A DNA stretch of 64,000 nucleotides. Origin: a virus. Position numbers and translations under genes: made by a program. Location: positions 64,001-128,000 of IMG/VR virus record IMGVR_UViG_3300030109_005647; one strand, given 5' to 3'. Below are positions 28,165 through 44,951 of the stretch, piece after piece; the stretch's first letter is position 1, and each line of letters starts with the position of its first letter. The notes under the pieces are model-generated. The model did no database searches. It saw only the letters and a program-made list of their open reading frames with translations, and was not told the origin of the DNA.

Positions 28165-29997
28165 TTATTCTACTCTAAACCTAAACCTTTCTGGTTGCTC
28201 AACGTAACTTCCATTAATTAGATAAGAAAAGCTTAATTCATAGACAGTATCGCTATCAAATAAGTTCATTTCTAAGTCAAAGTAGCTACCACTCGCATCA
28301 TAAGATAACCGAGTGTGGTTTAGCGAACCGGTCCCAAAAGGAATAACTTCTAGATTATCGCTCACGCGGGTGAAGCGATAGTAAGTATTGTCAATTATAC
28401 TTGTTTCTATTTCGTTATTCGCTACTGTATAAATAGTTGGGGACCAATCTTTTTGACGAGTATAGAGTCTAAATCTTACCTTTTCACCTTGATTATAAAC
28501 TGCACGTAAGTTGGTGACTTTAGAGACATATCTTTGGTCAAAATTATAATTTTGACTGTTAAAGGTTTGTACAGTTACCGCTGAACCGGTGTGGTACTCA
28601 ATCCCGTCTTTATTCCAAACATCAAATATTTTTGTGATGCTTGAAGAGGCGTAAGCAAATGAACATGAGTAAATACCCGTTTCGACGTGAGAGCCTGTAA
28701 TGGTTAGAGTGTCTGGTGAGTTTACGCCGCCGCCGAAAGGTAAAGAAAGTTTATTTCCAGTAGGGGCGGTGCTGCCGCTATAAATATTAACGAAAATATT
28801 TCCTGTCCCTATCGCTGGGATATCTTTAAGCTGTCCTCTGACCACGTTGTATAGATATAGATTCATTAAATTATCAGAAGCTGGAACAAGAGAGGAACTT
28901 AAGAAAAAATCTCCACGATTATCTTTTTTGCTGTCATCCCATCGGGCTTCGATAATGGGTCGTTTGTGAAAAAACTGTGATCCACGCGCAAAGAACATTT
29001 TAGTATAATAAGATTGTTCTTCAGTTTCATTGGCGGCGGTAAGACGCACACCAAAGCCATGATTACTTAAATCACCAGAAACCCAATCCTCCACGAGATG
29101 GCTTACATCAACCTCTAAGTTTTCGAAACCAGAGTCAAAAGATTGTGTGAAAGTATATTCTGCACTGTCGATATAACTGCCACCTTCAACATTGGCGCCG
29201 CCAGTAAAGTTAGCCACTGTAACACCATTGACGCTATCTGTATTATCTTTATCACCTATTGTGCCAGCAGTTGTCTGAGTAACTGTAACTTTAGTGCTAT
29301 CTGTAACTACAGCAGTAAACCCAGCATTTGTGGTCGCAGTAATTGACGCGGCAATTGCCGTTGCTATGTTCGCATTGCTCGTGGCGCCGCCATAGCCTAA
29401 TTCTACAGTGCCCCCCGCAGTGCCTCCTGGTTGTGACCCAAAGGGAGTAGTATCTTTAAACTGATACGTTGTGGCAACGCCAGCCGCATCGACCAAAATA
29501 AATGTTTCATTATTTCCTATCGATCCGTGACCAGTGACCGTAATTAGAGCGGTTGATCTTCCTGAATTCTCTGCCCACGGAACGCCACTAGAAGCAGAAA
29601 GATAGTTAGATGCATCTTCATCTGTATAATTTTCCATGTCCAGACCAAGACCTTCATTCCAAGATTGAGATATCGGCTGTACTAATAAAGCGTAATCCTT
29701 CGGCGTAGTTTGTGTATGCTCCGCGTCATACATGGTTAAGAAGAAATTAACACTACCAGATGCTGGAATTATGCCACTTGTTCTATCTGTATTTATTGCA
29801 GTTGTGTCGAATTCAATAAGAACTCGCGCTAATTCTGAGGATAGACCAGTGCTTGAACTTACTTGGGCATATATGCTAAAAACTTCAAGGATATCAGATT
29901 GACCCATATTTCCGCTGACACCACGGGTATCAAGGTTTGATTTGAAAGCGTTTGTTATGGTGTTATCTTTTGTCGCGTAGTATCTTTTTATAGCCAT
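28165..29997 (-). CDS. Virion protein with DNRLRE-like domain and an inserted module
   Basis: ATKDNTI..NMG..RVLIEFD..PISQSWNEG..W..GG pattern; Ig-like C-terminus. Confidence 0.6.
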   Translation of the reverse strand: MAIKRYYATKDNTITNAFKSNLDTRGVSGNMGQSDILEVFSIYAQVSSSTGLSSELARVLIEFDTTAINTDRTSGIIPASGSVNFFLTMYDAEHTQTTPKDYALLVQPISQSWNEGLGLDMENYTDEDASNYLSASSGVPWAENSGRSTALITVTGHGSIGNNETFILVDAAGVATTYQFKDTTPFGSQPGGTAGGTVELGYGGATSNANIATAIAASITATTNAGFTAVVTDSTKVTVTQTTAGTIGDKDNTDSVNGVTVANFTGGANVEGGSYIDSAEYTFTQSFDSGFENLEVDVSHLVEDWVSGDLSNHGFGVRLTAANETEEQSYYTKMFFARGSQFFHKRPIIEARWDDSKKDNRGDFFLSSSLVPASDNLMNLYLYNVVRGQLKDIPAIGTGNIFVNIYSGSTAPTGNKLSLPFGGGVNSPDTLTITGSHVETGIYSCSFAYASSSITKIFDVWNKDGIEYHTGSAVTVQTFNSQNYNFDQRYVSKVTNLRAVYNQGEKVRFRLYTRQKDWSPTIYTVANNEIETSIIDNTYYRFTRVSDNLEVIPFGTGSLNHTRLSYDASGSYFDLEMNLFDSDTVYELSFSYLINGSYVEQPERFRFRVE

Positions 29998-31793
29998 TAT
30001 TGAACAGTCCCTATGATGTCTGTGTTTGGAAATTTAATTTCAAAAACTGAATCGAATGGGCAAATTATTTTTCTACCATCTCTGCTTAAATTCCCGTCAA
30101 CAGAAAAGTTTGTATCTGAATATAAAGAGCCAGTTTTTGTTTCAACCTGTACGTCAATAACATCCAACACTAAAGGTGAATTTTTCAAGACAGAGAATAT
30201 ATCTGTTATAAAAAATGATTCTCCAATTTCATATTTGCCTCTACTATTAAAGAAATTAGCAATGCTATTTTTTGAAGAGTCTAAAGCGGCAAATTTATCT
30301 ACGTCTGGGTATGCTATTATTTTGTAATTTACTTGTAAGTTTATTATTTTAGCATCCAATATATCAATTGTATCGTTAATCATTTTAAACTTAGAAATGT
30401 AAGTTCTTAAATTATTTTTAATCGTAGCGCTGCTAACCTCTAAATTTCCTAAATTATTCTGGGAGACAACATACAAATTAATATTTCTCTGGTTAAATGA
30501 GTCTGAGTCTTGATAGACGCCCACTTTCTTAATAGTGCCGAATTTTGGAGGCATGTTGTATGCGGCTGTCATCATGTCTTCTTTTGTTACTATTCTATTC
30601 TGCATAGAATAACTTCCAAAGGCTCTTTCTTTTATTTCTTCTTGAGATGGGAAAGGATTATCACCTACGAAAGCCTCTTCGTTTATCACCTCTAAGCTAT
30701 CTCTTGTGGTAGTAACAGAGTTGGCATTGAGAACAGCCTCGCTCTCAAAAGAGAAAATAGGATCATATACAACGTTAACTGTATTTTGAGCAGTGTTTGT
30801 ATCTTCAGAAGAATTAATTCTATAGATTATTGTTAATACTGTGTTACTTGGGCTTACACCAAGAGAGTCTGTTTTTATTAAAGAAGCCGGGTCAAAAGAA
30901 TCATCTATTATGTGCGTTCTGCCGTGCGTGTTTATCAAAACCTTGCTCGGGTCCAAAACCTCTTCAACGTTTTCTTCTGATCCCGCACCAAATTGTAAAA
31001 AAACTGAATTTCTTTCTTTTATAACGGTATATCGGCGTGGAACAGAAATTGGTTTCATAATACTTGCAACAGTCTGACTGTCGGACCCATTATTGTCAAC
31101 TCCAACAAATACAGTGTTCTGGCTTAGGTAGTCGACTTCAAAATATGGATTTCCATCTGAATCGATTACAGAAACAATTTCTGTAATGTTTTCTCCCGGT
31201 ACCTCAACTTGTCTATAACGAATATACGAACCTAGTACTTGCTCTGTAACAGCTAGTTCTCCTGAGATGGCTTGTCCTCTTGCGCGAATGGCGTAAGATG
31301 TTGGGACGCCAGTGTTATTATCAACCTCACCAACAACAACCTCATTTTGTTCTGTATCTTTAAAATTGACATCTTCCAAAAGAGTAAATGTTTTTCCACC
31401 ATTAGTTTTAAATTTGCTATTAGATTTTAATATTGGCGCATAATCATAATCTGGAGCACCAGTGAGATTAGCAGGAACTAAAATAAAAAATGTTAAAGTG
31501 CCGTATGAAGCGGGGGATAAATCTGCTTTATATCCCATCTGTCTAGATATTTTTAATATATTGTCGTACTCTGTTGCGGTTGTTAAAAAGCTTTCGTTTA
31601 CTTGATAATCCAAATAAAAAGAAAGAATATCGCCAACATAAGAAACAGTATCCAACATCAAAGATCCAAAAGAGTTAACAGAAAAGTCTCTAAATGTCTC
31701 TGGGTAGTATCTTCTGGCATAGTTTACCAAATCGTTCTTTATAGTGGTAAAGTCTCTACTTGTGTAGTCTATAGATGGTTTTTTTGGTGGCAT
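29997..31793 (-). CDS. Baseplate wedge subunit (T4 gp6 / baseplate-J-like)
   Basis: IDYTSRDFTTIKNDL, GSLMLDTVSYVGDILSFYLD..NESFLTTA, FLQFG, QNRIVTKED. Confidence 0.88.
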   Translation of the reverse strand: MPPKKPSIDYTSRDFTTIKNDLVNYARRYYPETFRDFSVNSFGSLMLDTVSYVGDILSFYLDYQVNESFLTTATEYDNILKISRQMGYKADLSPASYGTLTFFILVPANLTGAPDYDYAPILKSNSKFKTNGGKTFTLLEDVNFKDTEQNEVVVGEVDNNTGVPTSYAIRARGQAISGELAVTEQVLGSYIRYRQVEVPGENITEIVSVIDSDGNPYFEVDYLSQNTVFVGVDNNGSDSQTVASIMKPISVPRRYTVIKERNSVFLQFGAGSEENVEEVLDPSKVLINTHGRTHIIDDSFDPASLIKTDSLGVSPSNTVLTIIYRINSSEDTNTAQNTVNVVYDPIFSFESEAVLNANSVTTTRDSLEVINEEAFVGDNPFPSQEEIKERAFGSYSMQNRIVTKEDMMTAAYNMPPKFGTIKKVGVYQDSDSFNQRNINLYVVSQNNLGNLEVSSATIKNNLRTYISKFKMINDTIDILDAKIINLQVNYKIIAYPDVDKFAALDSSKNSIANFFNSRGKYEIGESFFITDIFSVLKNSPLVLDVIDVQVETKTGSLYSDTNFSVDGNLSRDGRKIICPFDSVFEIKFPNTDIIGTVQ

Positions 31794-31810: not shown

Positions 31811-32215
31811 TTAATTCTGTATAGTTTCGACTAGTGTTACCGAATCTGTATTTTTCGTGCCTTTTATAAGATATTCAAATCTCACAGACAATAGATTTCT
31901 TTGTCCTGTTGTTGATATTTCGCGGTTAGAACCTCTATTAACCTGTAGATCAATTATTTGTATTTCTGGTAAATAGGTTGCAACTTGACTTCTTATTCTT
32001 TCCTCTATATCGAATTCAGGTGTGTTTTCAAATAGATAGTTTCTTAATCCAACCCCATAATCTGGAATCATAATACGTTCACCAGGAGCAGTAAGCATTA
32101 ACATTTTTACCTTTTGTTTTGTATTTTCTTTGGCAGTTTTTGTTAAACCGTAAAAAAGATCTGTTCTGTCTTCGAGTAAAGGTAACTTTGCATCTAACCC
32201 TATAGTGCCTTGCAT
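31811..32215 (-). CDS. Baseplate gp25/GPW-like sheath initiator
   Basis: VKMLMLTAPGERIMIPDYGVGL..LFE hallmark. Confidence 0.9.
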   Translation of the reverse strand: MQGTIGLDAKLPLLEDRTDLFYGLTKTAKENTKQKVKMLMLTAPGERIMIPDYGVGLRNYLFENTPEFDIEERIRSQVATYLPEIQIIDLQVNRGSNREISTTGQRNLLSVRFEYLIKGTKNTDSVTLVETIQN

Positions 32216-32257: not shown

Positions 32258-35200
32258 CTAATCTTCGCAATCCAAAGTATTTTCGGAGCCCTGTATTATG
32301 TTATTGGCTTCTTGAGTGCCATCAGACAGCGTGCTTTGGTCTGAATCGTCCGGTATGCCATCTAGAATTTTTGCTACGATTCCAATTGGAGTTAGTGGTC
32401 CAGGTAAAAGCCAAGGCGTTCTCCAGGTTGGATCGACCATGTTTGCTGCGCCTTTTAATAAAGTTTCTAGAAAAAGATTAATTAAATTAAAATCAAAAGA
32501 ATCAGCAGGAAGTTGGGCTTCAGGTGTATACTTATAAAAATCTTGATTATTTTCTCTATCTGCCGTAGCAGCAACATTGTTTTTAGAGGAATTTAGAGTT
32601 TGTAACGTGTTCCTAAATAAATTATCCATATTAGGGTAATTTTTTTGAACCGATTCTGTAAGCAATACAGCAACAAAAGATAAAATATTTTTATACTGCA
32701 TTGAGTCCACGAGCGCTCGAAAAGTATCAGAATTTGCGAAACTAGCCTCAAAGCCTGCCCCTTCACCGCAAACTTCAGGAAAGAAGCTAAACTGACTGTC
32801 GCCCTTAAACGCTGTTGGTTTTACTGTACAAGTTTGAATTTTAACAAGAGGTAGTTTGAAATACTTTTTACCATCAGTGCCCTCTTGAACGAAGTATTTT
32901 CTTTGAAGGGCAGCGTTAACGAAATCTTTCCTACTTAGTTTATCTATTTGATTATTTAAATCAGAACTGTCTTCGGCATTTAAAATTAAACTAAATGAAT
33001 TTGCTAAATCAGCAAATAAACTTAAATAATTTGTGTCAGATAGTTCATCAACAGGTATTAATATATTTAAAGTCTTATAGCCACTCAAAGAAGAAAAGTA
33101 TTTACTTTGATCTTTTAGTTCCTGTTCTATAGCGTTTATTGCGTGAACTGGCAATGGGCTAAACTGTAAATTAGTCACAACTAAAGATATAAAATCACTA
33201 ACACTATTGAATACATTTTCGGGCGATGCGAGAGTGCTGCGATAAGTTTGGTATTCTGTAGAGTCATATGATATATAACCATTAATTTTAGACAATTCTT
33301 TGACTTGATCGCTCGTTAAATACTGAAAAGCTTGGTTATCAAAGTACACGTCTTGAATATCATAAGAGGGCACTTTGTTGCCAGTGCTAGACACTGAACC
33401 AAACAAATACTTAGAAATTATGCTGCCGCCAAAGACATCCTGATTAAAGTTTCCCCTAAGATATATTCCAGATTGTTGAACTTCCGAAGGTGTTAAAAGA
33501 GTTTTTGTCGCATCAATCATCGGCGCAGTCTCTGGTAGCGCGAGAAAGATCGTGTCATACAAGCTTTTTTCAAATACTCCACTCTCGCCAAAGCGCTTGT
33601 GTTGTACTTCAAATCCATTTTCTAAAAAGAATCCACCGTTAAATAATCTGCTTGGTTTACCTTCAGCATCTTTAGAATAAAAACCATTTGGTATTTTTGT
33701 TATGTGATTGTCAAAATCAATCTCAATTACAGGGGGAGGATTATAATTTTGACTAGTGGCAAGTATGTTATTCAGACAAGTTTGATATACATTTTGTAAA
33801 GGATCTGTAAATTCTTGAGCAAACTCTCCCTCTTCAAAAAATGTGCCCTTCGTTGCAAACCCAGAATTAACTATTTTTTCCACAACTACCGGTTGTATTT
33901 GTTTTATAGATGTAGAGATTATTTCTCTTAATGAGTTAGATTTTATTTGTTCATCTGTCAACCCAGGGTTGTCCAAGTCTAAATTGTTTCTAGCTATATA
34001 AACCTGTCTTATTGACTCCTGCAAGACGTTTTCAAAAAAGAATATATCATTTTGTTCAAAAATTAACACTTTTCGTTTTACCTGATCCACAAGGTATGTA
34101 AAATAAAATGAATCAAAGTCTTTTTTATCTTCGGAGTCAGGAGGGATAATAGCATCGATACCATAAGATGCAAAAGTAAAAAAGCTTTTTAAAAACTCAT
34201 TTATTGTAAGTACCCTCACATATGCTTCATAAAAAGAATATATCTTTGCTTTTTCTACTGCAGTTGGTACCGCATTGAGACCTAGAATACAGCCTAATTT
34301 ATCAGAATTTTCTTTAAATCTAGTGACTATATCTTCGTATCCAAACAATGATTTATCACAAGAGTTTTTCTTGTTTACTTGAAGTTTATCAAAGTTTTCT
34401 TTTTTAAATAAATCGTTACCAGAAGAAACATACTCTGCGTGCTCTTTAATCATTTGTTCTATCAACGCGCCGAAAAATGATATACTTTTAACTGTTGATA
34501 AAATGTTGTTTGAATACTCCGATTGATCTTCCGTGCTGTTTAGATTATTAATACTGTCAAAAAAGTCTTGATAGGAGTGAGATTCCAAACTAGAAAAGAA
34601 AGATGTTGATCCAACTACTAATGCGGCAGTGCTTGGAGGAATATTATCTGTTTCAAAGTCTCCGTAATTTAGTCGATATTGTATTGGAGATCCCTCTGGT
34701 TGATCGCTTAATATAGTACTCAAATATATTTTGATATATTGAGTTAAAAGTGTGGTTTCTGTTATAATGCCGTTTTTTGATGCCGCTACAATATTGTTAT
34801 AAACTTTTTTACCGACAGTGTTAAATTGATTCACTAAGCCATTTAAAGTTGCTTTATTGACATCCTGAAGACCTTGAATGCTAGAATTATTAGGGTCCGC
34901 AAACTTGTAAAGGCTATTCATCGCATTGGTTAAATTCGCAGGAGCTAGTGGTCCTTGAAAGAATTTTGCTAGGCTTTCTGGACCTGTGCCAAACTGATTT
35001 GTAAAAATCATTTTGAACCCGACTAATTCTCTCTCAAAAATCTCTTGAATAGAAAGAAAAGAATCATTAAGAAATTTTTCATCTATGTATTGAGATGTGT
35101 CATGCTGCAATGTTTTGAATATTGGAGGATTATCTGATCCGTCCGCATCTGGACCGCAAAAAACTGGCGTATTAAATAAACTTGGGTTCTGCAGTTGATA

Positions 35201-37351
35201 GATTGAATCCATAACCTTTTCTAGTATCTGATTTTCTGAATCATTCAATGCCTTTAAAGCATCCTCTGTGAGTTTTTGCCTTAAATCTTCAGCTAAAAAA
35301 TCATCACTGACGGGACTACATAACGCATTTAAAACTTTTTTCGTATTCTCTAGGGCATCTATTTTTTCTTTACATAGTTTTGAATCAATGCTTCCAGCAA
35401 ATAAGAGAAACAATTCTTTAACACCCTGTTCATCTCCCAGGGCGTCTCGCAGAGACTTAAAGCGTTCTAAAGACAAAAGACCATAGAAGATTTTGTTAAT
35501 TATTGAATTGTAATTCAATCCAGTTGAAAATGTTGAAAACAGAGAGCACATTTCAGATACAGTCAGAAGATCATTTAAACTGTCAAAAAAGTCATCTAAA
35601 ACATTCCTGCTCACTTTGTTTTCCAGGTAAGCCTCTATTTCGTCAAATATCTCCGGGTTCGTAACTATTTCTTGAAGATTATCTTGCTCATATGGAAATT
35701 GTAGGTCCCCTAAATCATCCAACTCTTCTGATTCTTGGGCTGCTCCATCAGGACTTTTGAGGTTGGAAAAATCTGCAGCACTCGTACCATCACACAAGCC
35801 AGCTAATTCTCTCAATATCGCTCCAATTGTCTCGACAACTATTTGTGTTACTAGGCTGTATATCGCTTCTTTTAATGTTTGACTTGAATCGGAACCCATA
35901 CGCATCCCTTGATATTGATCAAGGGTGCCTGCTATGTTCTCCATAGCCTCTCTAGCTGGGTTGGCTAAACTATCTGCCTGTCTACGAATGAGTTCACCGG
36001 CTTTTATATTTGCATCTTGTATGTCTTCTAGTGCCTCTTTTGATATGTTCTTGATTTCATTTACAGTATTTTCTAATTGTTGTTGACCGGATAAAGCAGA
36101 TAAAAGAGATAGTGCGGCGGGTATAGCACCCAAGACAACAACACAAATTATATCTCTCTCCTGTGGATTTGCTTGTCGATATGTTTGTATTAAAAAATCT
36201 CTTACTATAGCTACAGTTGTTGAACTAGGGGTCGGTTGATTTAAATCACTATCTTGAAGACTTGTTTCTGTCTTTATTAGTGAAGCTAAAATGGCGGCTT
36301 CTGGATTTACACTATTGTATAAATACAATATTATGTTTTGTACATCTCTATTGGTCAGGTTTCTCATAATTGTATTACAAACCTGAGATAGAGGAGAAGA
36401 CTTGATCAGCTTAACTGTACATTTTGCTGCTTGTCGTATTAAATATTCTACAGGTATTGAATTCAATACTTTTTTATAAACATCGTCAATTGTCTTTATC
36501 TCGGTGGCATTTCGTAAAATATTAAGAACCACTGGATCACCAACTTGAAGAAGTGTTTTACGGACATCATCATTTATAATTCTTTTATCAGTGATACCCA
36601 ATCTCAATAATTCTTGATCCACCTGCTCAGTGGTCTTATAAGCGGTGGAGCCGTCATTATAAATTTTTCTCAATAGTTTATTTGGCTTGTTTAATCTATC
36701 TTCTCCATCTCCTATACCAACAACGCCTCTTTTTTCATCCTTATCTACTATAGGAGAATCTAGTGCTTCTGTTTCCTCTTCAATCCCAAGATTGTTTATT
36801 GGGTTTTCTATTAAATCTATAGTATCTGACAATGTAACATCAACAAATAATAGAACCTGAAAGTAGATTAGAGATCCAGCGTCTTTGTTGCCTGGGTCGA
36901 CATAAAAGTTTCGAGTAATGAGCATTTGCTGCGGAAGTCTTTCTGATACTTCCTCGCTTGCTATATCATCTTCACTATCTTCGGCAAAACCCAATACAAA
37001 ATTAAAAGTTTTATCTGTTTTAAAACTTTGGGCAAAAACACTTAAAGCTTCGCTTTTAATAGTAACAATTAATTCTTCATTAAAATCATTAGAGCTAAAC
37101 TTTTCTTTCCCTAGAATGTCTAAAACTTGCTTTATTGAAAATTGAGTTGTTATGTGATAAACATTTGTCTCTTTTCTTATTGTTTCATCAAAAGTTTGAA
37201 ATATAATTTCATCTTGACTGTTCTTGATGTTAGTATTTTCATCAAGAAAGCTCTCAGCATTTGGAGAAGCAAAAGCAATGCCTTCTGCTTCGTCATAGCT
37301 TATTTCTGTAGAGCCAATTTGTTTATACCATCTTGTTATTTGATTTGCCAT
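32258..37351 (-). CDS. Large acidic helical hypothetical protein (between spike and gp25)
   Basis: 1697-aa uninterrupted ORF; no motif recognised. Confidence 0.6.
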   Translation of the reverse strand: MANQITRWYKQIGSTEISYDEAEGIAFASPNAESFLDENTNIKNSQDEIIFQTFDETIRKETNVYHITTQFSIKQVLDILGKEKFSSNDFNEELIVTIKSEALSVFAQSFKTDKTFNFVLGFAEDSEDDIASEEVSERLPQQMLITRNFYVDPGNKDAGSLIYFQVLLFVDVTLSDTIDLIENPINNLGIEEETEALDSPIVDKDEKRGVVGIGDGEDRLNKPNKLLRKIYNDGSTAYKTTEQVDQELLRLGITDKRIINDDVRKTLLQVGDPVVLNILRNATEIKTIDDVYKKVLNSIPVEYLIRQAAKCTVKLIKSSPLSQVCNTIMRNLTNRDVQNIILYLYNSVNPEAAILASLIKTETSLQDSDLNQPTPSSTTVAIVRDFLIQTYRQANPQERDIICVVVLGAIPAALSLLSALSGQQQLENTVNEIKNISKEALEDIQDANIKAGELIRRQADSLANPAREAMENIAGTLDQYQGMRMGSDSSQTLKEAIYSLVTQIVVETIGAILRELAGLCDGTSAADFSNLKSPDGAAQESEELDDLGDLQFPYEQDNLQEIVTNPEIFDEIEAYLENKVSRNVLDDFFDSLNDLLTVSEMCSLFSTFSTGLNYNSIINKIFYGLLSLERFKSLRDALGDEQGVKELFLLFAGSIDSKLCKEKIDALENTKKVLNALCSPVSDDFLAEDLRQKLTEDALKALNDSENQILEKVMDSIYQLQNPSLFNTPVFCGPDADGSDNPPIFKTLQHDTSQYIDEKFLNDSFLSIQEIFERELVGFKMIFTNQFGTGPESLAKFFQGPLAPANLTNAMNSLYKFADPNNSSIQGLQDVNKATLNGLVNQFNTVGKKVYNNIVAASKNGIITETTLLTQYIKIYLSTILSDQPEGSPIQYRLNYGDFETDNIPPSTAALVVGSTSFFSSLESHSYQDFFDSINNLNSTEDQSEYSNNILSTVKSISFFGALIEQMIKEHAEYVSSGNDLFKKENFDKLQVNKKNSCDKSLFGYEDIVTRFKENSDKLGCILGLNAVPTAVEKAKIYSFYEAYVRVLTINEFLKSFFTFASYGIDAIIPPDSEDKKDFDSFYFTYLVDQVKRKVLIFEQNDIFFFENVLQESIRQVYIARNNLDLDNPGLTDEQIKSNSLREIISTSIKQIQPVVVEKIVNSGFATKGTFFEEGEFAQEFTDPLQNVYQTCLNNILATSQNYNPPPVIEIDFDNHITKIPNGFYSKDAEGKPSRLFNGGFFLENGFEVQHKRFGESGVFEKSLYDTIFLALPETAPMIDATKTLLTPSEVQQSGIYLRGNFNQDVFGGSIISKYLFGSVSSTGNKVPSYDIQDVYFDNQAFQYLTSDQVKELSKINGYISYDSTEYQTYRSTLASPENVFNSVSDFISLVVTNLQFSPLPVHAINAIEQELKDQSKYFSSLSGYKTLNILIPVDELSDTNYLSLFADLANSFSLILNAEDSSDLNNQIDKLSRKDFVNAALQRKYFVQEGTDGKKYFKLPLVKIQTCTVKPTAFKGDSQFSFFPEVCGEGAGFEASFANSDTFRALVDSMQYKNILSFVAVLLTESVQKNYPNMDNLFRNTLQTLNSSKNNVAATADRENNQDFYKYTPEAQLPADSFDFNLINLFLETLLKGAANMVDPTWRTPWLLPGPLTPIGIVAKILDGIPDDSDQSTLSDGTQEANNIIQGSENTLDCED

Positions 37352-37363: not shown

Positions 37364-38332
37364 TTAAGTTGTGTATACGGTTTTACTAGCGCTATTCTCA
37401 TAGCCAAAAGGTTCTGCCGTTGTAAGACCATCAAGTGTTGTTTTTAATTCGTTCATTATAACATCAGCTTGAGCAATTCCAGTGTTGCTAGCGCATTTTA
37501 TACCGCTAACAATAAGATCTATACTTGGTGAAACTTTGCCGCCTGCTACCGCTGCAGGACCTCCACCGGCTGCGACACCTACAGCTTGAATAGCTACACT
37601 ATCGTGCTGGTGTTTTGATATTTCAAGATTAAACTCACTTTGTGCTATTAGAAAGTTTCTAACTATCAATTGAAGTTCGTTTATTCTTTCTACCAATTTT
37701 TTTATGTTTTTGTTGTTTTGCTCTGCTTTCGTTACAGGCTGTAGTAACTCGCCTTTATTAGCGGCAATAAACTCTATTCTGGAGTGGCTTGCAATATCAG
37801 TACCGTGCGAAGAATTTAAATCTGTCCTAGTCGCTATAACTAATTTTTGCCTAGATAAAAGCCTGACAGAATCAGCCTTTGCGATGAAAGACGACACACC
37901 GCGTGCCTGAGATGTGGTGCCTTTTGATATATTCTCGTTTCCATCAGGATCATTAAGCTGGGAGATATTAATATATGCCGCGTCCTTAGCTAGATTTGGT
38001 TCTGTGACCAAAGACGCTTGAGATTTCACACCGGTGACATATCTACGAATGTCACTAGAAGACGGACCAGCACAAATAGAAATTTCTCCAGCGCCCATAT
38101 ATCTTCCATAACCAGAATCAGGATCACCTGGGCGATTTCTTCCTTGTCTAATATATGTCCCATTTTGACCGTAATCTACTTTTTCCCCTGGTAGCCTTCT
38201 AAGTCTTGCGACCCGTTCAACTAATGGATCACCATTGATTCCACACTTATTAAAATAAGTTGAATCTAAATTTGCCGCTCTTTGAGCCTCTGGTGAAAGA
38301 TCGTCAGGATTAAAAACCGATTTAAGAGACAT
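37364..38332 (-). CDS. Putative baseplate central spike (gp5-C/gpV-like)
   Basis: Beta-strand repeats FIAKADSVRLLSRQKLVIAT, short coiled coil, then an HQH (HxH) motif; adjacent to the muramidase gene. Confidence 0.5.
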   Translation of the reverse strand: MSLKSVFNPDDLSPEAQRAANLDSTYFNKCGINGDPLVERVARLRRLPGEKVDYGQNGTYIRQGRNRPGDPDSGYGRYMGAGEISICAGPSSSDIRRYVTGVKSQASLVTEPNLAKDAAYINISQLNDPDGNENISKGTTSQARGVSSFIAKADSVRLLSRQKLVIATRTDLNSSHGTDIASHSRIEFIAANKGELLQPVTKAEQNNKNIKKLVERINELQLIVRNFLIAQSEFNLEISKHQHDSVAIQAVGVAAGGGPAAVAGGKVSPSIDLIVSGIKCASNTGIAQADVIMNELKTTLDGLTTAEPFGYENSASKTVYTT

Positions 38333-38353: not shown

Positions 38354-40630
38354 TTAGCATTTTTGTTGTAATGAGTTGTTACTTCCCACTCCCTCCACTG
38401 TTTTTACTTTTTTACCTGCTTTTACTTCTTCTTCGCTTGGTCTTGTACCGGGAAGCAGACTAAGAACTAAATCTCTATAAGCCTTCTTCTCTTTTCCAGT
38501 TCTATAGTGTACTTTATGACCACCGGTTGGATTAAGTCCTGCAGCAATAGCAGCTAGTTTAATTTTTCTTGTTTGTTCAAAAACAGAGAAATATCTGATT
38601 TTGTATTGAGCAGCCTTTCGTATTTGAGCTTTATCCATAGCCTCGCGGCGTTTTTTTAAACCGCTATTATCACCACCAGCATCAGGATTTTGACCATAAG
38701 GAGGACCAAGGACAACAACATTAGTGCCCCCTGACTGTAGGGATGCTAACTTTTTATAAAGTTTTTCCAGTTCTTGATCCCAAGCTCCACCAGGCTTTAA
38801 ACTTTTTGAATTAGCTTTAGCAGAACTGGCGTCGTTTCCTCCACAAGATCCAAAAATGACTGCGACAGCTTTTTGAGACGTCACAGAAGTCAATGCTGTG
38901 CCGCCCTTATTAGATTTTGAAGTTGGACCATTTAAATTACTTGACTGAGGACCGACTGCCTTTCTTCCATCTACCGCCTGCCAGCTTATTTTTGAACCAG
39001 GATAGTTCTTTTTTGCCCAAGCCAATATCGCGCCTTTGTTGGCATTTGTATTTGAATCTCCATATATATAAACTACTTTTCCATTCGCTTTAGCGGAATC
39101 TACTGCTGCTTGTGCTTTTTCATTAGCCTTTGCCACAACATTAGGAGTCTGTTCGGTTGTCTCTACTTCATTTGGTTTTTTTAAATTTTCATCGTTTTTG
39201 CTTGCTTCTGTTTTGGATTTATACCAACTGGGGTAATAGGACTCTTTCGCTTTCTTAGCTTTCGCTTTCTTAGCTGCCGCTTCAACTTCCTCGGCTGATG
39301 GATCAGGAGAATCAACCTCAACTACTGTTGTTGCTGTTGTTGTGCTTGGCACTGATACTTGCGAGCCGGTTTGTCTTTGTTTATCCAAGTCGGATATAGC
39401 TTTCATTTTTGCGCCATATTTACAAATAGATCTTGGTTGACCGTTGTAAAATTTTCCCATTGAACACCAATCAAAAGTTTGCATAGCTTTTAAAAGGTAT
39501 TGATTTCCACTTTTTGATTTTTTAACAACCGTACAAAACTTAATAAGCGCGTCGGCTTGTGCCTCTACTGATCTTGTCATGCCTATGGCACAGTCTTTTG
39601 GATCTTTATAGCCTAAAGCTTTTGGGACACCTCCCCACGGATGAATTTGGAAAATACCCCATGATGTGTTTGCGTACGCACCTTTGTCCCAAAGCGATCT
39701 CCCTTGTCCCCAAATTCCAGTGCTATTGGTAAATCTTTTACCAGCCCAAGTTACATTTGGCTGTTTTTTAAAAACTGCTCGATACTTTTTAGTCCAATGG
39801 TTGCTTATCATAAAAAGAAAATGCGGCATTTTATTTAAATCGGCTTCACCGTTCCAGTTATTTGCTTTTGGCTTACGACCACCAGTTTCAGTAATTATAA
39901 ATCCCCTAATGAGTGAGATGTCGCAATTCAATGTTTGTGATATATGTTTTAATACAGGAAGAGGAATATTTCTATCTAACGCTTCTAATTTACCAAGTAA
40001 GCTGCGAGTACCAAATTTATGACCATTGGTTCCACCGCCGGTGGCACCTTTCATGGCGCACTCGCCAAAGTGACCCGATGCTGCTAACCTTCTTGCTACA
40101 GCGTCAAATCCTGCACCAGCTAAAGGAAACTCAAATAATGGATCAGTTAACGTTACAGGATCTCCAAAACTTACAGCGACTTTAGCTCCAGGGGTCGGAG
40201 TTTCACCTAGATAATCATATGATTTAAAAATACCTAAATTTGCTACAATATCTTCAATTTTTTTAACATAATCATCATAACCAGCTTCTCCAGGCTGTTT
40301 AAGATCTGGGGTTTCTATATGTGTTAACGAGGGTACATTGACGATTGCCAAAAACGGTTCAAAATTTTCACTTTGTATGTTTTCTTCAGATAGTTTTACG
40401 CTAGCCAATAGTGGATCAAAAAACAAGTTCCCCGCTGTGGATAAGCCATCTGGAAATACTTGTGCTATGAAGTCCCCATAAAATATATTTTTTGATTTAT
40501 AGCTATCGCTCTGTGCTTGGCTTTGCGCTTGATTTTTTAACCATCCAACAAAATCTCCATTTATCTTGTCAAAAGGGACTGAATCTACGGGGGTGCTAGT
40601 ATTATTTAAGAAAGAACGATTTTTTGCCAT
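38354..40630 (-). CDS. Tail-associated N-acetylmuramidase (DUF3380-like) fused to an SGNH hydrolase
   Basis: Muramidase: IITETGG, TSWGIFQI, DWCSMGKFYNG..KY. SGNH: IYGDSNT, VDGR, GGNDA, VVLGPP, HKVH. N-terminal PTPGAKVAVSFGDP resembles the gp5 OB-fold. Confidence 0.72.
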   Translation of the reverse strand: MAKNRSFLNNTSTPVDSVPFDKINGDFVGWLKNQAQSQAQSDSYKSKNIFYGDFIAQVFPDGLSTAGNLFFDPLLASVKLSEENIQSENFEPFLAIVNVPSLTHIETPDLKQPGEAGYDDYVKKIEDIVANLGIFKSYDYLGETPTPGAKVAVSFGDPVTLTDPLFEFPLAGAGFDAVARRLAASGHFGECAMKGATGGGTNGHKFGTRSLLGKLEALDRNIPLPVLKHISQTLNCDISLIRGFIITETGGRKPKANNWNGEADLNKMPHFLFMISNHWTKKYRAVFKKQPNVTWAGKRFTNSTGIWGQGRSLWDKGAYANTSWGIFQIHPWGGVPKALGYKDPKDCAIGMTRSVEAQADALIKFCTVVKKSKSGNQYLLKAMQTFDWCSMGKFYNGQPRSICKYGAKMKAISDLDKQRQTGSQVSVPSTTTATTVVEVDSPDPSAEEVEAAAKKAKAKKAKESYYPSWYKSKTEASKNDENLKKPNEVETTEQTPNVVAKANEKAQAAVDSAKANGKVVYIYGDSNTNANKGAILAWAKKNYPGSKISWQAVDGRKAVGPQSSNLNGPTSKSNKGGTALTSVTSQKAVAVIFGSCGGNDASSAKANSKSLKPGGAWDQELEKLYKKLASLQSGGTNVVVLGPPYGQNPDAGGDNSGLKKRREAMDKAQIRKAAQYKIRYFSVFEQTRKIKLAAIAAGLNPTGGHKVHYRTGKEKKAYRDLVLSLLPGTRPSEEEVKAGKKVKTVEGVGSNNSLQQKC

Positions 40631-40633: not shown

Positions 40634-40930
40634 TTATTTTTCCCCTTGGATTACGTCAAAAAGCTCTCTTTTGTCGTCTTCCGATAGTTCTACACTAGAA
40701 TCAGTTTTCTTAGCCATAATGGACGTAAGTTTTACTAATTGTTCATTGGATCTTTGTAAAGTTTCTACATACTTGGCTGCGATCAAACCTAAATCTTTGT
40801 GAGTTTCTTGACCATTGGTGATTTCTGCAAAAACTTGTGTGAGGAGTGTGGCTGTGATATCGCGATCGTCGCGAATATTGTCTATTGCTTCTTTAATGTA
40901 GACCTCTAGGTCCTTTACTGATCGTCCCAT
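40634..40930 (-). CDS. Small helical hypothetical protein
   Basis: 98 aa; overlaps the sigma-like gene's end. Confidence 0.6.
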   Translation of the reverse strand: MGRSVKDLEVYIKEAIDNIRDDRDITATLLTQVFAEITNGQETHKDLGLIAAKYVETLQRSNEQLVKLTSIMAKKTDSSVELSEDDKRELFDVIQGEK

Positions 40931-41613
40931 TCTTTTTTAAACTCCGCGTATCTCTTACGCACCTTGTTTAGAGAACTTACAACCTGCTTTGTGTTAAGCC
41001 CAGTTATCTCTCTAATATACAAGTAAATAGCTTTTTTGTTAAAAATTTCTATATTACTCGCTTCGTTAAAAAGAATCTCGATTGCTTTAATAGTCTTCAC
41101 TTCATTTTCGCGGAGGGGCATCTTTTTCCAACCTTCAATTTCTTTATTAAGGTGTGAGAAAAATTCATGCTTGTTTCTATCTTCAATATAGGTATTGTGA
41201 ACTACTAATTGTTGTATAGTGGTTGTATTTGACTGACCGGAGTGAGTTAGAAAATATTCTTCAAGATGGGTTTCTCTTTTAGCCTTTTTGGAGGTTTTTT
41301 TAACTTCCGCAATGAACCAATTTTTTGAAACAACACTAAAATAGGTGAACGCTTTGGAGCCTTTATCTGGATCGAAGTTGTTTAAAACAGTAATGAGCCA
41401 GTTTTTACAATCGTCTTTGAGTGAGTCAATATTAGGGAGAGATGTGAACTTATAAGTGTAAACTATCTTGTCAACCATTTCGTCAAACACTGGTCCAATG
41501 TATTCTTTGTAAAGCTCGTTGCGGCGCTTGGGCTCTTGCGTTTGACAATACTCCACAATAGCATCTTGATGCTCTCTGCGAAAATAATGGTTTTTAGTTC
41601 TCTTCCTTGGCAT
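40915..41613 (-). CDS. Phage sigma-70-like factor (T4 gp55-like late sigma)
   Basis: NNFDPDKGSKAFTYFSVVSKN matches sigma region 2.3-2.4; HTH-like C-terminus IREITGLNTKQV. Start at ATG 41613 (MPRKRTKNHYF). Confidence 0.7.
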   Translation of the reverse strand: MPRKRTKNHYFRREHQDAIVEYCQTQEPKRRNELYKEYIGPVFDEMVDKIVYTYKFTSLPNIDSLKDDCKNWLITVLNNFDPDKGSKAFTYFSVVSKNWFIAEVKKTSKKAKRETHLEEYFLTHSGQSNTTTIQQLVVHNTYIEDRNKHEFFSHLNKEIEGWKKMPLRENEVKTIKAIEILFNEASNIEIFNKKAIYLYIREITGLNTKQVVSSLNKVRKRYAEFKKEWDDQ

Positions 41614-41884
41614 ACTCTTCTTCCTCTTGTCTAAGGACACGCTGAAAACTTTGGCATTCCTCAACGAGAGATTTTGAGTGACGAAGTAGGTTTCCTAGTG
41701 TTTCGTCGCCATAAAAACGCTCAAGACCATTAACAATGTTAATATGATCTCTGTATTCTTCTAGTGTTTCACTGAAGCCGTCTAATTCTTCTTGAAAAGT
41801 TAAAAACCTCCTTAAGAGTTGAACGATATACCAGACAAAAACAATATTAAGAATGGTTGAGAGAGTCAAGAAAAGGTGTGTCAT
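41594..41884 (-). CDS. Membrane-anchored coiled-coil protein
   Basis: N-terminal TM LFLTLSTILNIVFVWYIV; conserved-looking FYGDETL. Confidence 0.6.
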   Translation of the reverse strand: MTHLFLTLSTILNIVFVWYIVQLLRRFLTFQEELDGFSETLEEYRDHINIVNGLERFYGDETLGNLLRHSKSLVEECQSFQRVLRQEEEEYAKEEN

Positions 41885-42384: not shown

Positions 42385-43224
42385 TTATTCTTCACTAACT
42401 GCGCGACCTTTAAGCTGTTCCCAGTCTTTTTCTGGTCTTACTTCTAAATTTTTATTCCAAACCGATTTTAACACTGCAGGGTTCATACCTGCTGATTCAG
42501 CAAAACTGATCAAAGCGTTGATATCTTTTGGAAAACACGAGCCTCCAAATCCAAATTTGCCATCAGGACCAGGGGAGCTAAAATGTGTTTTACCTATTCT
42601 TTGGTCGTAAAGACCATACTCTACTACTTTATCATAGTCTACGTTTATTTTTTCACATACTTGTCTAATTTCATTAGAAAAACTAACCTTTGTAGCCAGA
42701 AAACAATTAGTAAAGTATTTTACCATCTCTGCTGTGTTTGATCCTGTTTTGATTATGGATGCCGTAGGATAACACTTTCTATAAAGATTCTTAACTTTTG
42801 TAGTTCCAGGTCTTGGACCACCAATTATAACTCTATTTTGATTTTTAAAATCATTAATAAAATTAGCCTCGGTTAAGAACTCTGGATTAAATAACACTTG
42901 TAAATTGTTACATTCTTTGTTAAATTTTTCAGTTGTTCCTGGTAAAACTGTAGATTTTATAACTGCAATGTTGTCGTTGCCAAAAGAGTCTAGCTTGTAA
43001 ACCGTTTCAGAGACGATAGATAAGTCACAGTCTCCACTTTTTCTCATCGGAGTGGGAAGGCAAACAAAAATAATCTCTGCCCTCTGGCTTAATTGTTCAA
43101 GAGAATCACAGGTTGATTGTTTAAATTTATCATAAGTTTCAATCTGAACAAAGTCCTTAAAGCCTTCTCTTATGGCAGTTCCAACAAAACCTTGTCCTAC
43201 CACTCCAATCGTATTATTTTTCAT
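42385..43224 (-). CDS. ugd: UDP-glucose/GDP-mannose dehydrogenase family (short form)
   Basis: GQGFVG, CLPTP, IKSTVLPG, NPEFL, AEMVKYFTNCFLATKVSFSNE, catalytic GFGGSCFPKD. Confidence 0.9.
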   Translation of the reverse strand: MKNNTIGVVGQGFVGTAIREGFKDFVQIETYDKFKQSTCDSLEQLSQRAEIIFVCLPTPMRKSGDCDLSIVSETVYKLDSFGNDNIAVIKSTVLPGTTEKFNKECNNLQVLFNPEFLTEANFINDFKNQNRVIIGGPRPGTTKVKNLYRKCYPTASIIKTGSNTAEMVKYFTNCFLATKVSFSNEIRQVCEKINVDYDKVVEYGLYDQRIGKTHFSSPGPDGKFGFGGSCFPKDINALISFAESAGMNPAVLKSVWNKNLEVRPEKDWEQLKGRAVSEE

Positions 43225-44950: not shown

Positions 44951-44951
44951 T

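What the first reader, a model, noticed from the sequence alone, without database searches (positions are those of the whole stretch)
38354..40630. Tail muramidase fused to an SGNH esterase: possible counter to O-acetylated peptidoglycan
Seen: gp5-like N-domain, DUF3380-like muramidase (~39400-39960), a T/A/K-rich linker, and an SGNH domain (~38450-39080; GDS at 39053-39061, GGND, HKVH). Known: MurNAc 6-O-acetylation blocks muramidases, and the bacterial enzyme that removes it (Ape1) is an SGNH hydrolase. Inference: the baseplate enzyme de-acetylates the wall (or a capsule/LPS) and then cuts it. Caveat: block V reads HxxH instead of DxxH, so it may be a dyad enzyme or inactive.
Basis: partly seen in the sequence, partly recalled or inferred. 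Interest (0 to 1): 0.7.

Follow-up and report, generated by a model that had tools for sequence, protein, structure and literature searches.

The report
Phage baseplate muramidase fused to SGNH esterase
An uncultured phage carries, next to its baseplate genes, a cell-wall-cutting enzyme fused to an esterase domain, and relatives pair that esterase only with sugar-chain-cutting wall enzymes, so it probably strips protective acetyl groups from the wall, though this is untested.

Summary
The 758-aa ORF at 38354..40630 (-) has four parts:
- an N-terminal helix plus OB-fold domain (residues 1-205);
- a PF11860/DUF3380 N-acetylmuramidase, above Pfam's cut-off, with its catalytic Glu248 conserved;
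- an A/K/E-rich linker;
- a C-terminal SGNH-fold domain (AF2 pLDDT 88; VIA Z up to 14.6), with GDS, GGND and the block V His at exactly the stated coordinates.

It sits in a gene order that recurs in 9 of 10 related viral contigs: late sigma factor, p98, this gene, p322, p1697. gp25 follows wherever the fetched stretch reaches it (4 loci). In those contigs the N-domain is kept and the enzymatic cargo is swapped (GH25 or M74-like there; Amidase_2 in other relatives).

The SGNH domain belongs to a rare family of 37 sequences found here. In 28 it follows a peptidoglycan glycan-cleaving domain of one of three unrelated families (PF11860, GH24, SLT). It never follows an amidase, a peptidase or GH25.

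The fold does not single out Ape1 (tied with PatB, OatA, Axe2). The canonical DxxH Asp is missing here. The "HxxH" is not a conserved motif. The host is unknown.

Verdict: a new variant of a virion-associated lysin, of moderately high interest.

The parts
38354..40630 (-). Whole ORF, 758 aa (P0001): OB-fold N-domain, PF11860 muramidase, linker, SGNH domain
   Evidence: 100% match in its own record. One 64%-identical full-length relative, P0003.
40016..40630 (-). N-terminal domain, residues 1-205: helix 27-39 plus OB-like beta-barrel. Conserved adaptor onto which different wall hydrolases are fused in relatives.
   Evidence: Found in about 25 other proteins. AF2 pLDDT 65.3. OB-fold matches at Z 5.6-7.6, including phage and eCIS central spikes. 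Weak BFVD rows are named gp5/Vgr OB or 'baseplate hub + tail lysozyme'.
39311..40015 (-). PF11860/DUF3380 N-acetylmuramidase domain, residues 206-440 (Pfam core 309-411 = 39398-39706)
39887..39889 (-). Glu248 (in ITETGG), the equivalent of catalytic Glu101 of AP3gp15
   Evidence: E in 20 of 20 family rows that cover the column. Glu101 lies in 'VESKG', and E101A loses 99.4% of activity (PMC5674055, passages).
39107..39310 (-). Low-complexity A/K/E-rich linker, residues 441-508
   Evidence: Matches only P0003.
38357..39106 (-). SGNH-fold domain, residues 509-758 (well folded to about 732; the last 11 residues are disordered)
39053..39055 (-). Ser526, block I nucleophile (GDSNT)
   Evidence: S in 35 of 35 distinct family sequences that cover the column
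38834..38836 (-). Asn599, block III (GGND), oxyanion hole
   Evidence: N in 33 of 35
38507..38509 (-). His708, block V base (V-H-Y)
   Evidence: H in 33 of 34
38633..38635 (-). Asp666 (RxxMD helix), a candidate relocated triad acid. Unverified.
   Evidence: Covariation: D666 with no Asp at the DxxH site in 15; N/S666 with DxxH in 18; both in 1; neither in 0.
40634..40930 (-). p98, a conserved small upstream gene. Its stop codon lies 3 bases before the start of this ORF.
40915..41664 (-). gp55-like late sigma factor
   Evidence: phrog_234, E 5.7e-08. Syntenic in 9 of 10 loci; L012 begins downstream of it.
37364..38332 (-). p322, a conserved downstream gene with an invariant HxH (H241, H243). 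Possible spike component; speculative.
   Evidence: No Pfam, PHROG or PDB match.
32258..37351 (-). p1697, a conserved giant protein of unknown function lying before gp25
31811..32215 (-). gp25-like baseplate wedge protein
   Evidence: PF04965, 45.4 bits against a cut-off of 27.2. phrog_261 and phrog_43.
29997..31793 (-). gp6-like baseplate wedge protein
   Evidence: phrog_219. 29-31% identity over the full length to Microcystis phage Mel-JY01 and to the Flavobacterium phage immuto 'baseplate wedge protein'.

Best explanation
The gene encodes a virion-associated (baseplate) peptidoglycan hydrolase of a T4-like, uncultured phage.

The N-terminal helix plus OB-fold domain is the structural adaptor that holds the protein in the baseplate centre (inferred). 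The PF11860 domain cuts the MurNAc-GlcNAc bond using Glu248 (inferred from family membership). The C-terminal SGNH domain is most likely an active serine esterase (Ser526, Asn599, His708). It would remove 6-O-acetyl groups from MurNAc, so that the tethered muramidase can cut a wall that would otherwise resist it (inferred from domain co-occurrence).

The canonical block V Asp is absent. The enzyme would then work either as a Ser-His dyad, as CE2 esterases do, or with an acid recruited from elsewhere. Asp666 is a candidate.
For: Shown here:
1. The ORF and the motifs lie at the stated coordinates.
2. PF11860 is above Pfam's cut-off. A profile matches solved DUF3380 endolysins at E 4.9e-16. Catalytic Glu is present in 20 of 20 rows.
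3. The SGNH fold is confident: pLDDT 88, 140 PDB matches at E<=1e-3 and Z 14.6. Ser is kept in 35 of 35, Asn in 33 of 35 and His in 33 of 34 family sequences.
4. Baseplate context. The order late sigma, p98, this gene, p322, p1697 recurs in 9 of 10 related IMG/VR loci. The tenth, L012, starts at this gene. gp25 follows in the 4 loci whose stretch reaches that far.
5. Swapped cargo. In 9 of those loci scanned, the N-domain is kept and the cargo is GH25 in 4, weak M74-like in 2 and unassigned in 3. In other relatives it is Amidase_2, GH25 or M74-like.
6. Coupling. Of 37 sequences carrying this SGNH family, 28 have a glycan-cleaving domain directly N-terminal: 19 PF11860-like, 5 GH24 and 4 SLT. 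None has an amidase or a peptidase.
7. An SGNH-only profile search for longer proteins returned 20 proteins, all 20 with such a domain: 16 by precomputed Pfam and 4 more by a local profile.
8. In one homologous protein frame (SGNH plus an 'FGPEH' domain) the N-terminal glycosidase is PF11860, GH24 or SLT. PF11860 and SLT versions sit in the same gene neighbourhood.
9. None of the 13 other N-domain proteins of 400 aa or more has the SGNH domain. None of L003-L012 has one within 8 kb.

From the literature:
- MurNAc 6-O-acetylation gives lysozyme resistance, and PatB and Ape1 are SGNH enzymes (PMC9487903, passages).
- Ape1 needs the lytic transglycosylase LtgA, its binding partner, for optimal function (PMC7083599, abstract).
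- Characterised GH25 enzymes also have N,6-O-diacetylmuramidase activity. That fits the GH25 versions doing without an esterase (PMC7954357, start of abstract in the listing).
- Ser-His dyads occur in CE2 SGNH esterases (PMC9487903).
Against: - No activity was measured.
- The fold does not discriminate. CjPatB 14.6, Axe2 14.4, NgPatB and SpOatA 14.1, and CjApe1/NmApe1 13.5/13.4 all lie within about 1 Z unit.
- The family profile finds no solved SGNH protein by sequence. NCBIfam gives nothing.
- P0001 is below the Pfam GDSL_2 cut-off. Only one relative, P0056, passes it.
- The canonical Asp of DxxH is missing in this protein and its subclade.
- P0014, the nearest SGNH relative outside P0003/P0004, has an OB-like N-part and the SGNH domain but no muramidase.
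- P0017 and L013 join the SGNH domain to an N-terminal region of unknown function.
- The seeds of the SGNH profile came from a search with the whole protein. That favours PF11860-bearing hits; the GH24 and SLT hits do not suffer from this.
- The host is unknown, so whether its wall is O-acetylated is unknown.
- Virion incorporation is inferred from synteny only. No other wall hydrolase of six families tested was found in the 138.6-kb record, which is 78% complete. The protein could therefore also, or instead, serve in lysis.
Confidence: 0.5

Rival explanations
1. The SGNH domain is an active esterase or lipase, but its substrate is another envelope component: O-acetylated capsule or O-antigen, a nonulosonic acid, or outer-membrane (lyso)phospholipid. 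It would help the tail tip cross the outer layers, independently of the muramidase.
For: SGNH matches of similar Z include phospholipase A1 4hyq (13.8), TesA 4jgg (12.8), sialate O-acetylesterase 7pzh (12.7) and xylan and rhamnogalacturonan esterases. P0014 has the SGNH domain without a muramidase. SGNH esterases are reported in phage tail fibres and spikes (titles and abstracts in the listing, e.g. PMC11058221). The phage itself carries a sugar and nonulosonic-acid-like gene cluster.
Against: This leaves unexplained why the family sits behind glycan-cleaving wall enzymes of three unrelated families in 28 of 37 sequences and never behind an amidase, peptidase or GH25. There is no receptor-binding or beta-helix tailspike architecture. 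The domain lies at the end of a hub-type protein, not of a fibre.
Confidence: 0.22
2. The SGNH domain is catalytically weak or dead because it lacks the triad Asp. It would serve as a peptidoglycan-binding or positioning module for the muramidase.
For: The Asp of DxxH is absent here and in 15 of 34 family members. The Pfam score is sub-threshold. The block II Gly column varies: G in 17 of 36 covering rows.
Against: Ser, Asn and His are kept almost without exception (35/35, 33/35, 33/34), which is not expected of a mere binding module. Ser-His dyads are active in CE2 enzymes (PMC9487903). Every member has an Asp at either position 705 or position 666.
Confidence: 0.1
3. The protein is the phage's endolysin, or a dual-use lysin released at the end of infection, rather than a baseplate component. 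The N-domain would then be a wall-binding or regulatory domain.
For: It is the only recognisable wall hydrolase in the 138.6-kb record: PF00959, PF01464, PF01510, PF01183, PF13539 and PF08291 were all absent. The PHROG matches are named 'endolysin'. The related glycosidase-SGNH-FGPEH proteins lie between a ribonucleotide reductase and a DNA polymerase, not in a tail module.
Against: Its place is fixed directly upstream of p322, p1697, gp25 and gp6, in one tightly packed gene string. An OB-fold N-domain is conserved while the cargo is swapped, as expected of a structural anchor. The record is only 78% complete, so an endolysin may lie in the missing part. The two roles do not exclude each other.
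Confidence: 0.15

Closest known systems
T4 gp5 (baseplate hub subunit and tail lysozyme)
   Same: An N-terminal OB-type domain followed by a wall glycosidase, encoded beside the baseplate wedge genes gp25 and gp6. The presumed role is local wall digestion during tail penetration. (The T4 architecture is recalled, not fetched.)
   Different: The glycosidase is PF11860, not GH24. There is no C-terminal beta-helix; an SGNH domain stands there instead. There is no sequence match to Gp5_OB or Phage_base_V. The OB assignment rests on a low-confidence model.
Ape1, peptidoglycan O-acetylesterase of Neisseria and Campylobacter (4k3u, 8gld)
   Same: SGNH fold with Z 13.4-13.5. The proposed reaction, removal of MurNAc 6-O-acetyl to admit glycan-cleaving enzymes, is the same. 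Ape1 works together with the lytic transglycosylase LtgA (PMC7083599 abstract), which parallels the covalent fusion here.
   Different: No detectable sequence similarity. There is no inserted CBM-type domain such as Ape1 has (PMC9487903 passage). The canonical DxxH Asp is absent. It is viral and fused to a muramidase rather than a free periplasmic enzyme.
PatB / DUF459 and the OatA C-domain (peptidoglycan O-acetyltransferases; 8tlb, 7tlv, 5ufy)
   Same: Nominally the best structural matches (Z 14.6, 14.1, 14.1). DUF459 clusters appear among the Atlas structural neighbours. These enzymes act on the same MurNAc C6 position.
   Different: They transfer acetyl onto the wall and need a membrane donor partner. 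A virion enzyme has no such donor. The Z values tie with unrelated carbohydrate esterases.
DUF3380 endolysins AP3gp15 (5nm7) and Salmonella phage Gp110 type (7q4s)
   Same: The same muramidase family with its single catalytic Glu.
   Different: Those are endolysins, some with an N-terminal PG-binding domain. They have no OB-fold anchor and no esterase domain.
Cyanophage A-1(L) baseplate: hub gp15 with two hydrolytic activities, and spike gp25
   Same: A myophage baseplate centre that carries more than one wall-degrading domain. The spike gp25 has an N-terminal helix plus OB fold (PMC10966104 passages). A chain of that entry, 8kea_D, is among the best matches of the N-domain model (Z 7.1, 97 aligned, rmsd 7.5). 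I did not check which protein chain D is.
   Different: The A-1(L) activities are endoglucanase and peptidase, on the hub barrel protein. No esterase is present.
SGNH esterase domains of phage tail fibres and tailspikes (capsule or O-antigen deacetylases)
   Same: An SGNH domain carried on a virion tail protein (listing). The example G7C gp63.1 is recalled.
   Different: Those sit on receptor-binding fibres or spikes and act on surface polysaccharide. This one sits behind a muramidase on a hub-type protein.

Membership tests
SGNH/GDSL hydrolase superfamily | Three-layer alpha/beta/alpha SGNH fold | tested here: met
   AF2 pLDDT 88, pTM 0.87. 140 PDB matches at E<=1e-3. Z 12.5-14.6 over 170-199 aligned residues. 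Atlas TM 0.58-0.63 to GDSL_2 clusters.
SGNH/GDSL hydrolase superfamily | Block I GDS(x) with the Ser nucleophile | tested here: met
   G524-D525-S526. S in 35 of 35.
SGNH/GDSL hydrolase superfamily | Block II Gly | tested here: inconclusive
   G555 is present in this protein, but the column has G in only 17 of 36 covering rows. The region carries a subclade-specific insertion of low pLDDT.
SGNH/GDSL hydrolase superfamily | Block III GxND with Asn | tested here: met
   GGND 597-600. N in 33 of 35.
SGNH/GDSL hydrolase superfamily | Block V DxxH: the His | tested here: met
   H708; H in 33 of 34.
SGNH/GDSL hydrolase superfamily | Block V DxxH: the Asp three residues before the His | tested here: not met
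   H705 in this protein. Asp is present in 19 of 34 family members, none of them in this subclade.
SGNH/GDSL hydrolase superfamily | Pfam PF13472 gathering score | tested here: not met
   21.3 bits against 32.9. The relative P0056 reaches 36.6.
PF11860 / DUF3380 N-acetylmuramidase | Pfam gathering score | tested here: met
   43.5 bits against 22.3. 47.8 bits in the genome scan.
PF11860 / DUF3380 N-acetylmuramidase | Single catalytic Glu (AP3gp15 Glu101) | tested here: met
   E248 in ITETGG; E in 20 of 20 rows. Reference residue from PMC5674055.
PF11860 / DUF3380 N-acetylmuramidase | Muramidase cleavage specificity | not testable with these tools
   Needs muropeptide analysis.
Ape1-type peptidoglycan O-acetylesterase | Sequence relatedness to Ape1 | tested here: not met
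   The family profile finds no SGNH chain in the PDB at E<=10. NCBIfam gives no match.
Ape1-type peptidoglycan O-acetylesterase | Ser-His-Asp triad with the Asp in DxxH | tested here: not met
Ape1-type peptidoglycan O-acetylesterase | Structure closer to Ape1 than to other SGNH enzymes | tested here: inconclusive
   Z 13.4-13.5, tied with many others.
Ape1-type peptidoglycan O-acetylesterase | Releases acetate from O-acetylated peptidoglycan | not testable with these tools
   Biochemical assay needed.
T4 gp5-type hub/tail lysozyme | Gp5_OB / Phage_base_V N-terminal domain by sequence | tested here: not met
   No Pfam match at E<=1. No PF06714 or PF04717 match in the whole record.
T4 gp5-type hub/tail lysozyme | OB fold of the central-spike type | tested here: inconclusive
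   The model has pLDDT 65.3. Z 5.6-7.6 to both generic OB folds and spike proteins. Foldseek on the PDB gives nothing significant. BFVD rows are weak, E 0.07-0.26. Atlas hits at 0.85 are leads only.
T4 gp5-type hub/tail lysozyme | C-terminal triple beta-helix | tested here: not met
   The C-terminus is the SGNH domain.
T4 gp5-type hub/tail lysozyme | Encoded with the baseplate wedge genes | tested here: met
   gp25 (PF04965) and the gp6-like gene lie downstream in the same strand and string.

The most novel reading that the evidence does not exclude
Phages carry their own family of peptidoglycan de-O-acetylases, always tethered to a glycan-strand-cleaving enzyme (DUF3380 muramidase, GH24 lysozyme or SLT lytic transglycosylase). 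This would be a viral counter-measure to wall O-acetylation, which is otherwise known as a defence against lysozymes. In half of the family the triad acid has moved from the DxxH site to a helix position (Asp666). The window's protein would be the version mounted on the baseplate for entry.
Probability: 0.4. Interest if true: 0.75.

Novelty: new variant of a known kind. Interest (0 to 1): 0.62.

Why it matters
O-acetylation of MurNAc is a widespread way for bacteria to resist lysozymes and to control their own lytic transglycosylases. Four full-text searches listed no paper whose title or abstract opening describes a phage enzyme that removes this modification. I did not open the listed papers beyond those cited here, and most subscription journals are not in the library. 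The SGNH carbohydrate-esterase review PMC9487903 has no occurrence of 'phage'.

If the fused SGNH domain is a wall de-O-acetylase, three things follow:
- It shows how phages get through modified walls.
- It explains a recurrent two-enzyme cassette in uncultured phages.
- It offers a natural design for lysins that act on O-acetylated, lysozyme-resistant walls.

The cargo swapping on a conserved baseplate anchor is also a clear example of modular evolution of virion-associated lysins.

Tried and rejected
- tblastn of the protein against 50,697 phage records found no match. No cultured phage in that collection carries it.
- The word-based homologue search found only P0003.
- The N-domain profile against the PDB by sequence gave only a chance row. 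Foldseek on the PDB gave nothing at E<=1e-3 for the N-domain.
- NCBIfam gave nothing for P0001, p322 or p98.
- p322 has no PDB match, alone or as a profile. Its reading as a spike rests on an invariant HxH and a recalled analogy only.
- Complex prediction of p322 with the N-domain returned 'no answer' (score 0.01, mark 0.32). This counts neither for nor against binding.
- The T4 late-promoter word TATAAATA (recalled) is not enriched: 12 found against 9.4 expected.
- Alignment A1 was too diverse for a locus scan, so A3 and A6 were used instead.
- A search of five related records with the whole protein found no second muramidase-SGNH gene in G004 or G005. It found nothing in G001, although L014 in G001 holds an SGNH-like domain at profile level. 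That search was therefore not sensitive enough to show absence.
- An Ape1-specific assignment was considered and rejected as a membership claim (see Membership tests).
- A PatB-like acetyltransferase role was considered and rejected, because a virion enzyme has no acetyl donor (inference).
Full report
**What is there**

The window is bases 64001-128000 of a 138.6-kb IMG/VR virus record estimated at 78% complete. The finding's coordinates are exactly one ORF on the minus strand, 38354..40630, 758 aa.

Pfam places a PF11860 (DUF3380) N-acetylmuramidase at residues 309-411, at 43.5 bits against a cut-off of 22.3. It gives a sub-threshold Lipase_GDSL_2 match at residues 523-688, at 21.3 bits against 32.9. 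PHROGs calls the middle part 'endolysin'.

- GDS = residues 524-526 = 39053-39061.
- GGND = residues 597-600.
- HKVH = residues 705-708.

The stretch between the two enzyme domains (residues 441-512) is low-complexity and rich in A, K and E. A short T run precedes it.

**Muramidase domain**

A profile built from relatives matches the solved DUF3380 endolysins 7q4s (E 4.9e-16), 7rum and 5nm7 over nearly the whole domain. AP3gp15 uses a single catalytic Glu101 in the motif VESKG, and its E101A mutant loses 99.4% of activity (PMC5674055, passages read). The equivalent residue here is Glu248 in ITETGG. It is Glu in 20 of 20 family rows that cover the column. I take this domain as a likely active muramidase.

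**SGNH domain**

An AlphaFold2 model of residues 509-758, made with an 18-row alignment, has mean pLDDT 88.0 and pTM 0.87. Only the last 11 residues are disordered. Foldseek finds 140 PDB matches at E<=1e-3, and all 50 listed rows are SGNH/GDSL proteins.

A second look with VIA-align gives these Z scores:

| Chain | Protein | Z |
|---|---|---|
| 8tlb | C. jejuni PatB | 14.6 |
| 4jj4 | Axe2 | 14.4 |
| 7tlv | N. gonorrhoeae PatB | 14.1 |
| 5ufy | S. pneumoniae OatA C-domain | 14.1 |
| 8gld | C. jejuni Ape1 | 13.5 |
| 4k3u | N. meningitidis Ape1 | 13.4 |

The fold is certain. The peptidoglycan-acting SGNH enzymes are in the top tier. But rows within 1 Z unit are tied, so the fold does not name the substrate. 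The ESM Atlas's own model agrees on the fold (TM 0.58-0.63 to GDSL_2 and DUF459 clusters). By sequence the family finds no solved SGNH protein and no NCBIfam model.

**Catalytic residues across the family**

In a local iterative alignment of all SGNH-bearing sequences found:
- The block I Ser is present in 35 of 35 distinct sequences that cover it.
- The block III Asn is present in 33 of 35.
- The block V His is present in 33 of 34.
- The Asp three residues before the His (DxxH) is present in 19 of 34. It is absent from the whole subclade that holds this protein.

Position 705 is H, Y, G, F, C, T or S in the subclade.

One further pattern stands out. Position 666, in a conserved RxxMD helix, is Asp in all 15 sequences that lack the DxxH Asp. 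It is Asn or Ser in 18 that have the DxxH Asp. One sequence has both, and none has neither. This could mean that the triad acid has moved. It could equally be a difference between two clades. I could not measure distances in the model. Ser-His dyads are known in CE2 SGNH esterases (PMC9487903, passages), so loss of the Asp does not imply a dead enzyme.

**N-terminal domain and context**

Residues 1-205 form a module found in about 25 other proteins among only 44 hits in a library of 1.84 billion representatives.

In those proteins it is followed by different wall hydrolases (10 of the 13 such proteins of 400 aa or more were scanned):
- GH25 in P0005 and P0039.
- Amidase_2 in P0015, P0028 and P0041.
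- An M74-like peptidase in P0030 (above the cut-off) and in P0010 and P0013 (below it).
- No assigned domain in P0025 and P0032.

Ten related IMG/VR loci were fetched. Nine show the gene order p96, late sigma factor, p98, N-domain protein, p322, p1697. The tenth, L012, begins at the N-domain gene and shows the downstream part. gp25 follows in the four loci (L003, L004, L009, L012) whose fetched stretch reaches beyond p1697.

In 9 of those loci scanned, the cargo is GH25 in 4, weak M74-like in 2 and unassigned in 3. L011 duplicates L010 and was left out.

In the window the string continues with a gp25-like protein (PF04965, 45.4 bits) and a gp6-like wedge protein. The nearest cultured relatives of the latter are Microcystis phage Mel-JY01 and Flavobacterium phage immuto, at 29-31% identity.

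The N-domain model is weak (pLDDT 65.3). It shows a helix followed by an OB-like barrel.
- VIA-align against 48,161 chains gives Z 5.6-7.6. The matches are generic OB folds and, among them, central spikes or hub parts: 8kea_D of cyanophage A-1(L) 7.1, Mu 9ki1_V 6.6, eCIS 7aef_q 6.6, P1 9vzk_q 6.2, VgrG1 4uhv 5.6 and phi812 9euf_B 5.6.
- The A-1(L) spike is described as an N-terminal helix plus OB fold (PMC10966104, passages). Its Supplementary Fig. 7a, which I could not see, compares spikes.
- In BFVD, 13 of the 50 listed rows are named gp5/Vgr OB-fold, 'baseplate hub + tail lysozyme', baseplate protein or VgrG-type. All are at E 0.07-0.26.
- There is no Pfam Gp5_OB or Phage_base_V match in the protein or in the record.

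I conclude that the protein is very probably a structural baseplate-centre protein with swappable enzymatic cargo. It is analogous to T4 gp5 but is not a demonstrable member of that family, and it lacks the beta-helix.

**The key comparative result**

I collected every sequence that carries this SGNH family from four sources:
- the whole-protein search;
- an SGNH-only profile search for longer proteins (20 hits);
- the same profile search for proteins of similar length (3 hits, two of them evident fragments);
- viral loci.

This gave 37 sequences. In 28 of them, a peptidoglycan glycan-cleaving domain stands directly N-terminal of the SGNH domain:

| N-terminal domain | Count | How assigned |
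|---|---|---|
| PF11860-like | 19 | Pfam for most; a local profile for P0056, P0060, P0061, P0062 |
| GH24 Phage_lysozyme | 5 | P0036, P0042, P0044, P0049, P0050 |
| SLT lytic transglycosylase | 4 | P0057, P0058, L014, L015 |

The other nine are:
- five short or truncated sequences (P0004, P0024, P0033, P0045, P0063);
- P0047, whose N-terminal 216 aa are unassigned;
- P0017 and L013, whose N-terminal region matches phrog_36119 of unknown function;
- P0014, a 401-aa protein with an OB-like N-part and the SGNH domain but no muramidase.

None of the 37 carries an amidase or a peptidase.

Conversely, none of the 13 other N-domain proteins of 400 aa or more has the SGNH domain. No SGNH domain lies within 8 kb in L003-L012.

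Within one homologous frame (SGNH plus a conserved 'FG[PD]EH' domain), the N-terminal glycosidase is PF11860, GH24 or SLT. The PF11860 versions (L016, L018) and the SLT versions (L014, L015) occupy the same neighbourhood, between a ribonucleotide reductase and a DNA polymerase. The glycosidase has thus been replaced by non-homologous ones while the SGNH domain stayed.

**How this bears on the mechanism**

Lysozyme-type muramidases are hindered by 6-O-acetyl-MurNAc (PMC9487903, passages). Lytic transglycosylases need the free C6 hydroxyl (recalled). Amidases and peptidases do not touch that position. Characterised GH25 enzymes also have N,6-O-diacetylmuramidase activity (PMC7954357, start of abstract in the listing).

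The observed pattern is an esterase with PF11860, GH24 and SLT, and none with GH25, amidase or peptidase. This is what the de-O-acetylase hypothesis predicts. In Neisseria, Ape1 needs its binding partner, the lytic transglycosylase LtgA, for optimal function (PMC7083599, abstract). That is a cellular precedent for coupling the two activities.

Weaknesses:
- The sample is small and partly seeded from a PF11860-bearing query.
- P0014 and P0017/L013 are exceptions.
- The Asp is missing.
- The host and its wall are unknown.
- Nothing was assayed.

**Other points**

- P758 is the only recognisable wall hydrolase in the record. PF00959, PF01464, PF01510, PF01183, PF13539 and PF08291 were absent, and PF11860 and PF13472 hit only this ORF. 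A role in lysis cannot be excluded.
- No cultured phage in the 50,697-record collection has a relative.
- Four literature searches listed no paper whose title or abstract opening describes a phage-encoded peptidoglycan O-acetylesterase. Phage SGNH domains in those listings are tail-fibre or tailspike esterases.

**Verdict**

- Novelty: a new variant of a known kind (a virion-associated lysin), carrying a member of a rare, apparently undescribed SGNH family tied to glycan-cleaving wall enzymes.
- Interest: 0.62.

Noticed in passing
window 42385-51465 (-) and onward: A run of sugar-modification genes follows: UDP-glucose dehydrogenase (phrog_9148), NAD epimerase/dehydratase, an MptE-like protein (PF01973), a SAM methyltransferase, a HAD-like protein, an HpcH/HpaI aldolase and a CTP_transf_3 cytidylyltransferase. 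This looks like a phage-borne nonulosonic-acid or other activated-sugar pathway.
   Followed up: partly
window 18642-28163, 32258-37351, 14157-17579, 10857-13994, 2526-5684 (all -): Giant ORFs of 3173, 1697, 1140, 1045 and 1052 aa lie in the tail and baseplate region. The four that were scanned (1697, 1140, 1045 and also the 610-aa ORF) have no Pfam or PHROG match. The 1697-aa protein is conserved in all 10 related loci.
   Followed up: partly
window 37364-38332 (-), p322; alignment A5: This is the conserved neighbour of the lysin. It has an invariant HxH (H241, H243), many invariant Gly/Asp positions and no known family. The HxH recalls the metal-binding apex of phage spikes (recalled, untested). 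Together with the lysin it might form a gp5 split into two genes.
   Followed up: partly
SGNH family alignment (P0001 positions 666 and 705): Asp at position 666 and Asp at the DxxH position are almost perfectly complementary across 34 sequences: 15, 18, 1 with both, 0 with neither. This could be a relocated catalytic acid or merely a clade marker.
   Followed up: partly
L014 6654-8483, L015 6609-8345, L016 8001-9824, L018 7701-9542: In a second phage group, a glycosidase-SGNH-'FG[PD]EH' protein lies between a class II-like ribonucleotide reductase and a DNA polymerase. The reductase is 65% identical to one in Microcystis phage Mel-JY01. The glycosidase is SLT in two loci and PF11860 in the other two.
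   Followed up: partly
P0036 (865 aa), residues 606-699: A GH24-SGNH protein with an added thioredoxin domain, above Pfam's cut-off (59.9 bits). This is an unexpected partner for a wall hydrolase.
   Followed up: no
P0006, P0009, P0038, P0042, P0036, P0047 C-termini (alignment A3): These proteins end in a shared basic motif, roughly K-R-K-I-R-I-I-L, after a variable region. Its function is unknown.
   Followed up: no
L013 72-2432: A 786-aa protein joins an N-terminal phrog_36119 region (unknown function, with a weak NTP_transf_2 hint) to the same SGNH family. It is followed by Laminin_G_3 and VWA/MopE-motif proteins.
   Followed up: no
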